From NCBI GenBank assembly GCA_040222015.1, contig JAVJWO010000192.1, positions 1-64,000 of the forward strand: 64,000 nt of DNA, given 5' to 3'. The position numbers and the translations under genes were made by a program. Within the stretch, counting starts at the first letter, position 1; each line of letters begins with the position of its first letter. Below the pieces are notes generated by a model. The model saw only the letters and a list, made by a program, of their open reading frames with translations. It did no database searches and had not been told where the DNA came from. The stretch comes from Coleofasciculus chthonoplastes F2-STO-03 (lineage in GTDB: Bacteria; Cyanobacteriota; Cyanobacteriia; Cyanobacteriales; Coleofasciculaceae). Of the stretch, positions 12,517-19,371 are shown piece after piece.

Positions 12517-12524
12517 TGTCGTTA

Positions 12525-12573
12525 GTCATTGGTCATTGGTCATTGGTCATTGGTCATTGGTCATTGGTCATTG
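12525..12573. repeat. STRR heptamer (GTCATTG)x7
   Basis: Seven direct copies. Confidence 0.95.
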
Positions 12574-12599
12574 GTCAAATAGTTCTTGCAATTAAAGAC

Positions 12600-12664
12600 A
12601 GGGCGGGTTTTGCAGCCAAGCTAGGGACAACAATCAATATATTATTCCCTAAACCCGCCCCTAC
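12600..12664. repeat. REP-like palindrome GGGCGGGTTT...AAACCCGCCCCTAC
   Basis: Same arms also near 10998-11060, 18571-18688, 55779-55838 and 56842-56904. Confidence 0.85.
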
Positions 12665-12698
12665 ACACAGACGTGTCATGCTACGCCTGGAATACTAT

Positions 12699-13135
12699 GT
12701 GAACTACCCACACTAACCCTCCGGGTATAGTGTAGGCTTCGCGTCTCATTCGCCGATGCCTCTAGCAAGAAGTTGCCTTTGGTCTTACTCAGCATCTCTG
12801 GCTGGAATCCAGCCTTTATCTCCGAGAGTTGGAGAACCCGCGCAGCCGCCCTGGTTCCCAAGGCAGAAATGTGAGAGCTTGTAGAGTTTTCCGATTTTAC
12901 GGGCAGATCGACATGGACATCTAGATCCAGGGGTTTCTCTGATTCCCTAGTCTCAGCCGAGTACTTTTACCCATACAGGTAGCCTCTTAGTCCGCTAGGT
13001 GGGTCAACGACCAATCTAGATTGTGCCACAAATTGCTTGGTACGTCAGGATAAAATGGGAACAAGTTCCCTCTGAATGGCGATTCATCTCGCCGCTAACC
13101 CTTCGGGTATAGCGGGAGACTTCTCGCCGAACGAG
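12699..13135 (-). mobile_element. Non-autonomous IS200/IS605-family element (437 bp)
   Basis: Shared subterminal hairpin core CTAACCCT(C/T)CGGGTATAG near both ends; left end follows TTTAA, right end ends TTCAC; no TSD; no intact tnpA/tnpB. Confidence 0.8.
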
Positions 13136-15202
13136 TTAAAACCAATCATCATCCTCTTCATCCCAATCATTTTCTAAGGGGGCGGAACGGACATCGCGAC
13201 GGGAATAGGTTTTCTCTATATCGCGATCGCGTCGGCGACTGGATCGACCTGTCCCTACACCATAATTGTATGGGTCACGGGATTCACGGGGTTCACGCCG
13301 TTTGGGTTCCCAATAGGCGTCCTCTTCGTCTTCTCCAGTGAAGACACGACGAATTGAGCCAAAAAAGTCATCATCCTCATCTTCGGCGTAAGCTAACCGT
13401 ACCTCCCGTTTGAGTTCATAGATGGTATCTTGTAAATCCGATTGCGCCCGGTCAATCCCCCGGTCATCATTTTGCGCGATCGCGTCTCGTAGTTCCAGCA
13501 CCAACGCTTCAATCCGCCGCCGATACGCACTGGCAAATTGGGTGCCAAAATCCAGCGTAATTTCTTTGAGTTGACGTTCCGCATCCGTCGCCATGGTTTC
13601 GGCGCGATTGCGCTTTTCTACCCGTTCCCGCCGTTGACGATCCAGTTGGGCATTTTCCTCGGCGTCGCGAATCATCTGTTGCACTTGCGACTCATTTAGG
13701 GTCGATGCGCCTTGGATTGTCACACTTTGCTCCCGCCCCGTAGTTTTATCCAAGGCGGTTACCTGTAAAATCCCATTGGCGTCAATATCAAACGCCACTT
13801 GCACTTGGGGAACACCGCGAGGCGCAGGCGGAATCCCGGTCAGCTTAAATCGTCCCAGGGATTTGTTATCATTTGCCATTTCCCGTTCCCCTTGCAGGAC
13901 ATGAATTTCTACGAGGGTTTGATTATTTTCGCTGGTAGAAAAGATATCGGATCGCCGCACCGGGATAGTCGTATTCCGGGGGATCAACTTTTTCATCACC
14001 CCACCAATGGTTTCCAATCCCATCGATAACGGCGTCACATCCAGCAACAGCACATCCTTGACTTCATTACTCAGGATACCCGCTTGAATTGCCGCCCCAA
14101 CCGCTACCACTTCATCAGGATTCACATTTTGATTCGGTTCTTTGTCAATTAAACTCCGCACCAATTGCAGAACTAAGGGAATGCGAGTCGAACCCCCAAC
14201 CAAAACCACCTCATCAATTTGTACAGGCGTCAATCCCGCATCTTTGAAGGCGCGTTTTAGGGGACGACGCAAACGACTCACTAATTCTCCACACAATCCC
14301 TCAAACTGGGGACGAGTCAGTCGGGTTTCCAGATGCTTAGGTCCCTCAGCGGTGGCGGTGATAAAGGGTAAATTAATCTCCGTCACTCCCACCCCGGAAA
14401 GCTCAATCTTGGCTTTTTCCGCAGCTTCCATCAATCGCTGGAGGGCTTGGCGATCGCGGCGTAAATCCACGCCTTCGGTTTCGAGGAACTGTTCAGCTAG
14501 CCAATCCACAATTTTGCGGTCAAAATCATTTCCCCCCAATTGGGTATCCCCACTGGTGGCTTTAACCTCAAAAACACCATCTCCCACATCTAGAATCGAG
14601 ACATCAAACGTACCACCGCCCAAATCAAAGACTAAAATCGTCTGACTGTTTTCCCGATCCAACCCATACGCCAAGGATGCGGCTGTGGGTTCATTGAGAA
14701 TTCGCAACACCTCCAAACCCGCAATCCGCCCCGCATCTCGCGTCGCCTGCCGTTGGGAATCATTAAAATAGGCGGGAACCGTAATCACCGCCCCCGTCAC
14801 CTCTTCACCCAGATAGCGAGTCGCCTCATCCGCCAACTTCCGCAGTACCATCGCCGAAATCTCTTCCGGGAAAAATTCCTGCTTCAGACGGGGACAGCGA
14901 ATTTTAATCGCGTCTTCTGGATCACGGCGAATCGTATAGGGAACGCGCTTAGACTCAGGATTGAGTTCACTATATCGACGCCCCACAAAGCGTTTAATTC
15001 CATAAAACGTATTTTGGGGATTGAGAACCCCTTGGCGACGTGCCATTTGTCCGACTAAGCGTTCCCCCTCCTTACTAAACGCCACCACAGAAGGGGTTGT
15101 CCGCATACCTTCTGCATTAGCAATGACAACCGGCTTGCCACCCTCCATGACGGCTACCACAGAGTTTGTTGTCCCTAGGTCAATGCCGACTACCTTGCCC
15201 AT
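13136..15202 (-). CDS. dnaK: Molecular chaperone DnaK (DnaK3 type)
   Basis: [17 protein letters not shown]; acidic C-terminal WDEEDDDWF motif of cyanobacterial DnaK3. Confidence 0.97.
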
Positions 15203-17598: not shown

Positions 17599-17733
17599 AA
17601 GCGCCGATATTACCAATGATACCAAATCCGTTAGCTACCCCCGTTATAATTTAGTCCGCACAGGCGGACTTTGTTTGTGTAGCAGCGATTTCAATCGCCT
17701 CCTCAAAAGGGGGTTATGAAGGCGGATTGGGTA

Positions 17734-17761
17734 TGACCAATGACCAATGACCAATGACCAA
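17734..17761. repeat. STRR heptamer (TGACCAA)x4
   Basis: Four direct copies; reverse complement of the 12525 unit. Confidence 0.9.
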
Positions 17762-17766
17762 ATAAG

Positions 17767-19371
17767 CTAAATCCAAGAACGGAACCACATTCGCAGTTGA
17801 TGACCCCCAGGAGATAGAGGTAATCCTAAATAAATCGGCAACCAAAAGACAAATGCCAACAGAATTAAACTAATCACCGTTATCGCTGCAATTTGCCACG
17901 ATTCTTGCTCTCGATGTAGCCAACGGTCAATTAGCCAAGCTAACCCTAACCCGGAAAACACAGAAGCTCCCATATAGTGGTATAAAAATGTACAGCGACT
18001 GACCCCAATCCAAGGTAATAACTGAGCCAACCAGTTAAGCCCTAAATAGAGACTAATATAATTCACCGTTGTCGGCGGAAAATATCCATGTATTCCTGAC
18101 CAAAGACGCTGTAGCAACAGCAATAGTAACAATAAAATTGCTGCTGTTGACAGCCACCAAAGGATAGGATTTCCCATCGCATGGACATCATAGATCACCT
18201 GACCATATCCTTTGGGTAACGGTGGGTAAGCCGGGACTTGTTCACGGGTACTCTGGGCAGTTTGGTAAAAGTAAGCCACAGGTCGCAGCATAATCAGCCA
18301 AGTGTACCATTTTGAACAGTAGGGATGAACCTCTGGTCCGCTACCGATTTTTTCGTGAAAGGTCAAAATTCTATAGTGGGCTTCCCAAAATCCGGGTTGG
18401 GGATTCATGATTAGGTGGGGAATCCAAAGCAAGCTATAGGTTAACGCCGGAATTATGGCAAAATTTACTAAGAATTGAATCCCGTTTAATTGAGTTAGAT
18501 TAACTAAGGAAGTTTTAAGTGTTGAGTTTTGAGTGTTGACCCTACGCTTCGCTGGAGGACATGATTTGTCGGGGCGGGTTTCACGACTATCGTCTCTTTT
18601 TGACCTAGATACAAATAAACCCGCCCCAACCCAATCACGACTATCGTCTCGTTTTGATCCTGATACAAATAAACCCGCCCCAACCCAAGGTTTAAATTTT
18701 GAACCCTCTCTTCTCCACTGAAGCAGCAAAGCCATCCCCCACAGGAGATAAAGCCCGAATAAAAACCATAAACCATTCCATTTAATACAAGCAGAGGCGC
18801 CGAAACAAGCACCCGATAATGCCAAAATTATCCAGCGTTTTGACTGAGATTGACTGAGTGCGATTAACAAACATAAATTCCCCAATAATCCTAAAATAAC
18901 CAAATAGACATTATTCAGTGCGTAGCGAGACTCAACTAAAAATAGACCATCCGCCCCGGCTAACAAGGCGGCGATTAACGCATAGCTGCGACGCCGATTA
19001 AGCTGATAGGCAATTCCGGCGACAACTAAGGGGATAAACGAACCCGTGAGCGCATTCAGCCAACGGTAACTCCATGTCGATCGCAATGAACCCGCCAAAC
19101 CATTCATGGACTGCTGATCCCAGGGAAAATGAGAACCCAGCCACATTCCGATCGCGATAATATATTGACTCAAGGGGGGATGGGCATTGAAAAAGTCTGT
19201 TCCGGTTAAGTAATTATTGGCAAATTTGGCATAATATACCTCATCAAATACCAGCGTATTAAATCGACCCAATCCCCAAAATCGGATCAGGGCTGAGGCT
19301 AAAAAAATAGCGATTAATCCAAGACGAAACCAATACTTTGATAACTGATATAATTTATGATTCCCAATCAT
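17767..19371 (-). CDS. PMT-type lipid-carrier-dependent glycosyltransferase (protein O-mannosyltransferase-like)
   Basis: LVFDEVYY, AHPPL, HPYCSKWYTW, FLYHY; multi-TM. Confidence 0.88.
   Translation of the reverse strand: MIGNHKLYQLSKYWFRLGLIAIFLASALIRFWGLGRFNTLVFDEVYYAKFANNYLTGTDFFNAHPPLSQYIIAIGMWLGSHFPWDQQSMNGLAGSLRSTWSYRWLNALTGSFIPLVVAGIAYQLNRRRSYALIAALLAGADGLFLVESRYALNNVYLVILGLLGNLCLLIALSQSQSKRWIILALSGACFGASACIKWNGLWFLFGLYLLWGMALLLQWRREGSKFKPWVGAGLFVSGSKRDDSRDWVGAGLFVSRSKRDDSRETRPDKSCPPAKRRVNTQNSTLKTSLVNLTQLNGIQFLVNFAIIPALTYSLLWIPHLIMNPQPGFWEAHYRILTFHEKIGSGPEVHPYCSKWYTWLIMLRPVAYFYQTAQSTREQVPAYPPLPKGYGQVIYDVHAMGNPILWWLSTAAILLLLLLLLQRLWSGIHGYFPPTTVNYISLYLGLNWLAQLLPWIGVSRCTFLYHYMGASVFSGLGLAWLIDRWLHREQESWQIAAITVISLILLAFVFWLPIYLGLPLSPGGHQLRMWFRSWI

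What the first reader, a model, noticed from the sequence alone, without database searches (positions are those of the whole stretch)
12699..13135. Protein-less IS200/IS605 element inserted at the dnaK3 stop codon; possible stand-alone omega/reRNA guide locus
Seen (minus strand): dnaK ends TGG TTT TAA and the element starts at the next base; both ends carry the hairpin core CTATACCCG(A/G)AGGGTTAG; the right end is ...GGTAGTTCAC; no TSD. A short frame ..LVVDPPSGLRGYLYG* stops at 12967, leaving about 268 nt to the right end. Known: IS605 inserts 3' of TTTAA, and TnpB guide RNAs derive from the right end plus flank. Inference: the element kept its RNA scaffold, is co-oriented with the dnaK-dnaJ transcript, and would carry guide ATAGTATTCCAGGCGTAG targeting the empty allele TTTAA|ATAGTATTCC for a TnpB supplied in trans.
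Basis: partly seen in the sequence, partly recalled or inferred. Interest (0 to 1): 0.76.

Follow-up and report, generated by a model that had tools for sequence, protein, structure and literature searches.

The report
Gene-less guide-RNA transposon with portable leader
A 437-base gene-less jumping element sits right behind a cyanobacterial chaperone gene and belongs to a widespread family that keeps a TnpB-type guide-RNA scaffold behind a conserved promoter motif and an undescribed folded RNA leader, so it likely borrows its cutting and jumping enzymes from other transposons; the general kind is known, the shared leader is the new part.

Summary
Observation confirmed. The 437-nt element (12699-13135, minus) follows the dnaK stop, has no target duplication, and is absent at this site in 8 of 8 same-genus genomes. 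It is a PATE-type IS200/IS605 mini-element. Its last 170 nt form a covarying TnpB-type omegaRNA scaffold; a model built only from gene-less copies matches the 3' ends of four intact TnpB elements in the same genome that share the TTAA target. Corrections: the target motif is TTAA, the short frame is no gene relic, and the predicted RNA is about 314 nt plus guide, from an internal promoter. Gene-less omegaRNA elements are in print and were found before in this scan on other DNA, once with a structured leader. New here: a gene-less lineage in 42 of 401 genomes (at least 12 families) with its own scaffold signature, and a conserved 5' leader domain without Rfam match. The leader starts 6 nt after a -10 box and also fronts a second scaffold family with another target (TCAT). 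Metatranscriptome contigs cover the element (weak hint). TnpB loading, cleavage and leader function are untested; no intact guide-matching empty allele was seen.

The parts
13136..15202 (-). host dnaK (688 aa), intact; its stop codon supplies TAA of the target motif
13136..13139 (-). TTAA target / predicted TAM
   Evidence: empty sites; family left junctions; same motif before four intact TnpB elements
12699..13135 (-). whole gene-less IS200/IS605 mini-element, 437 nt
13087..13135 (-). left end with subterminal DNA hairpin (13087-13119); AAGT at 13119-13122 is the predicted DNA guide for TTAA (pairing rule recalled)
   Evidence: DNA-guide principle in 10.1101/2023.03.14.532601 section 5
13057..13070 (-). 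terminator-like hairpin between left end and promoter; consensus match only
   Evidence: 2 found on both strands, shuffles 0.6
13020..13048 (-). predicted sigma-70-type promoter (CTGACG, 17 nt, CACAAT); non-consensus in this copy and below the scanner threshold
   Evidence: TAnnnT exactly 6 nt before the leader in 40 of 53 family copies; one search found 0 promoters
12870..13012 (-). conserved 5' RNA leader: domain 1 (12943-13012; 5' hairpin plus closing helix) and a more variable domain 2 (12870-12942); no Rfam match; function unknown
   Evidence: Rfam
12699..12869 (-). TnpB-type omegaRNA scaffold: stem 1 at 12846-12866, predicted pseudoknot of loop 12854-12857 with 12701-12704, right-end hairpin 12707-12736, end motif TCAC
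   Evidence: architecture as in PMC10097598 passages
12683..12698 (-). predicted 16-nt guide (host flank); no second TTAA-adjacent match in the own genome
   Evidence: guide length from PMC10097598
11521..12516 (-). host dnaJ-type gene downstream, same strand
   Evidence: below curated cut-offs

Best explanation
This is a gene-less IS200/IS605 mini-transposon that inserted after TTAA and carries a conserved RNA leader fused to a TnpB-type guide-RNA scaffold; it is likely moved by a TnpA and likely guarded by a TnpB, both encoded elsewhere in the genome. Shown: ends, empty sites, near-identical gene-less copies at different TTAA sites within single genomes, scaffold covariation and structural homology to TnpB 3' ends, and intact TTAA-flanked TnpB elements plus Y1 transposase genes in the same genome. 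Inferred: an internal promoter makes an RNA of about 314 nt plus flank. A TnpB loads it, possibly trimming the leader as TnpB trims its own mRNA, cuts TTAA-plus-flank empty alleles, and recombination copies the element back. The leader most likely takes the place of the tnpB mRNA as a stabilising and loading handle, which would let a free guide RNA compete with guides made in cis.
For: Empty site in 8 of 8 congeners. Own genome holds TTAA|flank joints for 7 of the 11 congener copies whose right flank aligned from its first base, of 20 tested. Near-identical gene-less copies at separate sites: G095 four, G142 three, G283 two, G030 two. Scaffold: 20 of 44 pairs with two-sided changes, 97.6% of cells paired, 0 of 500 shuffles as high; 16 of 34 pairs including leader and pseudoknot. 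Model R1 matches the 3' ends of 15 of 15 chosen TnpB loci, the four own TTAA elements at 49-57 bits; their RuvC D, E, D motifs are intact by inspection. Minis share left ends with TnpB elements of the same genome (G010, G142). -10 box at a fixed distance. Orthologous copies are more conserved than their flanks in 2 of 4 independent locus comparisons (0/165 vs 8/175, p 0.007; 0/165 vs 7/174, p 0.015). RNA runs X2 and X16 cover the element. Own genome has 17 Y1 TnpA matches, several intact.
Against: No experiment shows loading or cleavage. The scaffold signature differs from the sampled TnpB-coded scaffolds (40 of 42 leader-bearing vs 2 of 18 TnpB rows) and carries a 41-nt insertion, so compatibility with the local TnpB is unproven. 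The genome-wide R1 scan did not list the four TnpB loci (150 of 1376 candidates scored). No intact guide-matching empty allele was seen. This copy's -10 box is non-consensus, its leader folds no better than shuffles on its own (z -0.11), and one RNA contig starts at 13031, upstream of the predicted start. RNA evidence is unstranded, low-depth contigs from runs picked for holding this stretch, both salt-marsh 2020. The tested structure was derived from these sequences, and related sequences inflate covariation counts; the pseudoknot covariation is one pair in four related rows. The other two orthologue comparisons were not significant (8/165 vs 16/174, p 0.14) or uninformative.
Confidence: 0.72

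Rival explanations
1. Passive hitch-hiker: the element is moved by TnpA, but its RNA is no longer loaded by any TnpB; conservation reflects recent spread and DNA-end needs.
For: No cognate TnpB with the same scaffold signature in 85 sites; weak promoter in this copy; 4 of 11 own empty alleles have a changed TTAA but 7 are intact, so nothing shows pressure on targets.
Against: Compensatory changes in internal helices far from the DNA ends; fixed promoter spacing; persistence across at least 12 families; short copies without a left hairpin stay unchanged while flanks diverge.
Confidence: 0.1
2. Decoy or host-kept regulator: the abundant leader-scaffold RNA binds TnpB (or an unidentified nuclease-dead relative) and blunts or redirects it instead of guarding its own site.
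For: Extra 5' RNA can inhibit TnpB cleavage (PMC10278001 passages); immobile-looking short copies sit in leaders of host genes and are conserved between species; 52 vs 31 downstream ORFs are co-oriented (p 0.03).
Against: Guides differ at every site and equal the local flank; copies are patchy and recently mobile; no second target in the own genome for 6 of 6 guides tested. The screen for a lone TnpB partner stopped on a script error after 33 of 59 proteins, so that partner is not excluded.
Confidence: 0.12
3. The leader is a catalytic RNA (self-cleaving or splicing, as in IStrons) or a captured IscB-type omegaRNA that gives the element a second function.
For: About 60 nt of domain 1 are nearly invariant between distant families; short motifs resemble IscB omegaRNA by eye (recalled lead; own HEARO loci printed).
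Against: No Rfam family at E up to 5 or 10 or at gathering score; HEARO model misses this locus among 39 own matches; profile cross-scores no higher than shuffles (best 2.0 vs 4.2 and 1.3 vs 7.3 bits); the leader lies behind an internal promoter and the element ends in C, unlike a group I intron (recalled rule).
Confidence: 0.06

Closest known systems
PATEs, palindrome-associated transposable elements (PMC3119063; passages read)
   Same: No terminal inverted repeats, near-terminal palindromes alike at both ends, no target duplication, too short for a transposase, strain-specific insertions.
   Different: In the passages read, PATEs are described as repeats or deletion derivatives; here the interior is a conserved, covarying, promoter-driven RNA with a leader unrelated to tnpB coding sequence.
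Standalone omegaRNAs and omegaRNA-bearing PATEs of OMEGA systems (PMC10691335 passages; 10.1101/2023.03.14.532601 passages and section 5)
   Same: Mobile, effector-less guide-RNA loci whose guide is the flank and that must be used in trans; those papers call their biological role unknown or propose use in trans.
   Different: The passages read describe no long-lived gene-less lineage with its own scaffold signature and no shared 5' leader placed on two scaffold families with different targets. Supplements were not examined.
ISDra2-type TnpB omegaRNA (PMC10097598 passages) and cyanobacterial IS200_TnpB-like elements (NF038281 397-399 bits, below the 425 cut-off; NF040570 above cut-off)
   Same: Stem 1 with a loop pairing to the 3' end as a pseudoknot, central stem, terminal hairpin, guide from the flank; same TTAA left junction and GTAGTTCAC end as the four own elements.
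   Different: No overlapping ORF; 41-nt two-hairpin insertion; different central-stem sequence; a dedicated leader instead of tnpB mRNA.

Membership tests
PATE / non-autonomous IS200/IS605 | subterminal hairpins at both ends, no terminal inverted repeats | tested here: met
PATE / non-autonomous IS200/IS605 | insertion 3' of a fixed short motif without target duplication | tested here: met
PATE / non-autonomous IS200/IS605 | no transposase or TnpB gene | tested here: met
PATE / non-autonomous IS200/IS605 | mobile as a gene-less unit | tested here: met
   near-identical copies at different TTAA sites in one genome; the mobilising TnpA is not identified
Standalone TnpB omegaRNA | right-end scaffold structurally homologous to TnpB omegaRNA, with pseudoknot | tested here: met
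   pseudoknot covariation rests on one pair
Standalone TnpB omegaRNA | transcribed through the right end into the flank | tested here: inconclusive
   unstranded RNA contigs span the junction in X2 and X16
Standalone TnpB omegaRNA | compatible TnpB in the same genome | tested here: inconclusive
   four intact TTAA-flanked TnpB elements with homologous scaffold, but a different scaffold signature
Standalone TnpB omegaRNA | RNA-guided, TAM-dependent cleavage in trans | not testable with these tools
   needs biochemistry
IscB/HEARO omegaRNA | match to RF02033 or to own IscB omegaRNAs | tested here: not met
IStron (group I intron plus IS605) | group I intron core at the left end | tested here: not met
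   no Rfam intron match

The most novel reading that the evidence does not exclude
The leader is a dedicated, portable RNA domain that turns the guide RNA of different TnpB families into a free-standing, efficiently loaded gene, creating an RNA-only parasite of IS605 transposons that has spread through cyanobacteria by swapping ends and scaffolds and that hijacks whichever local TnpB and TnpA fit.
Probability: 0.35. Interest if true: 0.78.

Novelty: new variant of a known kind. Interest (0 to 1): 0.55.

Why it matters
The role of standalone omegaRNAs is called unknown in PMC10691335. This locus gives a defined test set: the RNA, its predicted start, target and guide, and four candidate TnpB partners from one genome. 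If the leader aids stability or loading in trans, it explains how gene-less guides compete with guides cut from TnpB's own mRNA, and it offers a natural part for expressing guides of compact TnpB editors. If it does nothing measurable, this is a well-resolved example of a known kind.

Tried and rejected
Short frame as a tnpB relic: no similarity. Stop-codon targeting: not enriched. A TnpB-coding parent with the same scaffold: none in 85 sites; L160 has a separate TnpB element upstream and L271 is a mini interrupted by an IS607 element. The TnpB-related element at G000:C136 shares only the last 47 nt. IscB/HEARO origin of the leader: not supported. A first pseudoknot guess (UGAG with UUCA) showed no two-sided change (helix 7) and was replaced by the stem-1-loop pairing. 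Rfam: no relevant match. Viral contigs: 0 hits for two patterns. Plasmids: no full-length match. Off-site guide targets in the own genome: none with fewer than 3 mismatches for 6 guides. Lack of RNA cover on dnaK and dnaJ in X2 and X16, and on most of a 19.9-kb stretch, is noted but cannot rank expression, as the runs were picked with this stretch and table 8 was cut. X17 and X18 showed no long piece on the element in the listed rows. The pair screen was swamped by invariant G and U columns and gave no new helix. Literature searches (listings and abstract starts) returned no description of this cyanobacterial family or leader; subscription papers and supplements were not covered. PMC13565253 passages and a term search in PMC12558985 (no hits) added nothing.

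Full report
Observation. On the minus strand dnaK ends at 13136 and a 437-nt insert runs from 13135 to 12699, followed by a spacer and a dnaJ-type gene. The two ends share an 18-nt core and fold as DNA hairpins. All 8 same-genus genomes searched have the uninterrupted site TTTTAA|AT..; none matches the 16-nt flank fully, as the spacer varies between species. Two RNA runs hold contigs with no mismatch across the right junction, so the filled allele exists in nature.

Family. BLAST, pattern and model searches found many relatives. The diagnostic scaffold pattern occurs in 42 of 401 genomes of the order, in at least 12 families, with 0 control hits. Named records from the collection scan are Coleofasciculus, Moorena, Nostoc, Tolypothrix, Calothrix, Microcoleus and Stenomitos. 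Of 85 distinct sites, none has a TnpB frame running into the scaffold; two have a separate TnpB element within 1.6 kb upstream. Near-identical gene-less copies lie at different TTAA sites in single genomes (G095 four, G142 three, G283 two, G030 two), so the unit moves without its own genes. The target is TTAA, with any base before it (T 37, C 10, G 6, A 6 of 59). The window's genome shows TTAA|flank joints for 7 of 11 cleanly aligned congener copies, of 20 tested. Stop-codon insertion is not enriched.

Scaffold. The last 170 nt form a conserved structure: 20 of 44 named pairs have two-sided changes against 4-10 when partners are slid. Across both subfamilies 16 of 34 pairs do, including a stem-1-loop pairing with the 3' end (GAAC with GUUC in 3 rows, GAAU with GUUC in 1, GAAG-type with CUUC in 16), the pseudoknot position described for ISDra2 (PMC10097598 passages). 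The structure was derived from these sequences and the rows are related, so the counts are generous. Model R1, built from gene-less copies only, matched 15 of 15 chosen TnpB 3' ends. Of 27 further loci from an order-wide scan, 4 had a TnpB domain running into the match, 1 looked coding on a short contig, 1 was a short relic and 21 were gene-less. The own genome has 75 TnpB-domain matches; four intact 417-429-aa elements begin after TTAA and end in GTAGTTCAC and score 49-57 bits. They are the best partners on offer, but their central stem differs: the gene-less signature is in 40 of 42 leader-bearing rows and 2 of 18 TnpB rows, and a rough 87-column tree puts 16 of 18 TnpB rows in a clade of 21 without leader-bearing rows (TnpB sample narrow).

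Leader and promoter. Upstream of the scaffold lies about 143 nt of conserved RNA. A TAnnnT box stands before it in 41 of 53 copies, at exactly 6 nt in 40, against 18% for shuffles over six positions; this copy has CACAAT there and the promoter scanner missed it. The closing helix covaries, but this copy alone folds no better than shuffles. Searching with the leader alone gave 17 metagenome loci: 13 with the scaffold behind it, 3 cut by contig ends, 1 without. Of 27 genome loci, 26 had the scaffold and none a TnpB domain. The leader model hit 11 of 146 genomes of the phylum, all in the same order, and a broader model 21 of 39 in the family (this tally includes the unpublished G044, on which no other claim rests). 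No Rfam family matches and an IscB origin was not supported. The same leader also fronts a second scaffold class ending in GGATGTCAA: G000:C216 and loci of G009, G017, G020, G042, G048 and G066. That scaffold is 83-93% alike in pieces to the 3' end of another TnpB family, follows TCAT in 5 of 5 readable left ends (two are the same site in two genomes), and had no TnpB domain in 9 of 9 loci tested. Left ends are also swapped: minis of G010 and G142 use the left end of TnpB elements of the same genome. Other gene-less lineages use other leaders or none, so this leader is not required for a scaffold to persist.

Expression and selection. RNA runs X2 and X16 have mismatch-free contigs at 12559-12859 and 12881-13031, and at 12657-12950. 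They are unstranded, of depth 2-14, from runs picked with this stretch and possibly one campaign; the piece starting at 13031 begins upstream of the predicted start. This is a weak hint. Orthologous short copies are more conserved than their flanks in 2 of 4 locus comparisons, which fits selection or homing. DNA run X1, identical in the flanks over 465 and 125 nt, lacks the element and also the first 24 nt of the right flank, the whole predicted target. That is what escape from guided cutting would leave, but it is one case in an indel-prone spacer; run X3 has an ordinary diverged empty site.

Mechanism. Shown: ends, target, mobility, scaffold homology, candidate enzymes in trans. Inferred from 10.1101/2023.03.14.532601 (passages and section 5): TnpA excises and inserts the element, and TnpB with the RNA cuts empty alleles so that recombination restores it. 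Inferred from PMC10278001 (passages): TnpB may trim the 5' part, and 5' RNA can modulate activity. My reading is that the leader stands in for the tnpB mRNA as a stabilising and loading handle; this step is a guess.

Novelty. PATEs (PMC3119063) and standalone omegaRNAs (PMC10691335) are known, and this scan reported gene-less omegaRNA elements in at least seven other genomes and structured leaders in two; no look-alike sequence was indexed. Eight literature searches found no account of this family or leader; subscription papers and supplements were not seen. Verdict: a new variant of a known kind, interest 0.55.

Noticed in passing
G000:C216 about 121593-122003 (+), locus L291: Second gene-less mini in the same genome: same leader on a different omegaRNA scaffold ending GGATGTCAA; G009 has 11 low-scoring leader hits, of which five fetched are near-identical copies of this class after TCAT.
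   Followed up: partly
G000:C17:54377-54565 (-); L030: 189-nt copy (scaffold plus 24 nt, no left hairpin) upstream of an apcE-like gene (name by recalled N-terminus); present in 2 of 9 genus genomes with 0 of 165 differences, clean TTAA joint in the other 7.
   Followed up: yes
G000:C124 about 17700-18367 (+), L186: Family copy that carries a small divergent frame of about 45 aa inside the element, resembling a ribbon-helix-helix regulator by eye; similar frames in L078, L096, L181, L301.
   Followed up: partly
run X1, joint 13136 to 12674 (window): Near-identical strain lacks the element and the 24 nt that would be the guide target.
   Followed up: partly
G000 genome-wide: 26 HEARO matches over the Rfam cut-off against 18 IscB-domain matches, so gene-less IscB-type omegaRNAs are probably present too.
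   Followed up: no
L271 / L290 (G307:C302): An IS607 element (serine recombinase plus TnpB) inserted between the left end and the promoter of a family copy.
   Followed up: yes
L037, L087, L139, L144, L146, L280, L273: Other conserved leaders on the same scaffold: one with a GAAAACCAA-loop hairpin, one starting AGAGATGTAG with a GAAC motif; both recur in several families.
   Followed up: no
window 12518-12573 and 12601-12660: Heptamer tandem repeat and a dispersed palindromic repeat with hundreds of genome copies in the dnaK-dnaJ spacer.
   Followed up: no
window 13057-13070 (-): Terminator-like hairpin inside the element, also in L026; could cut dnaK-dnaJ read-through and leave dnaJ under the element's promoter.
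   Followed up: no
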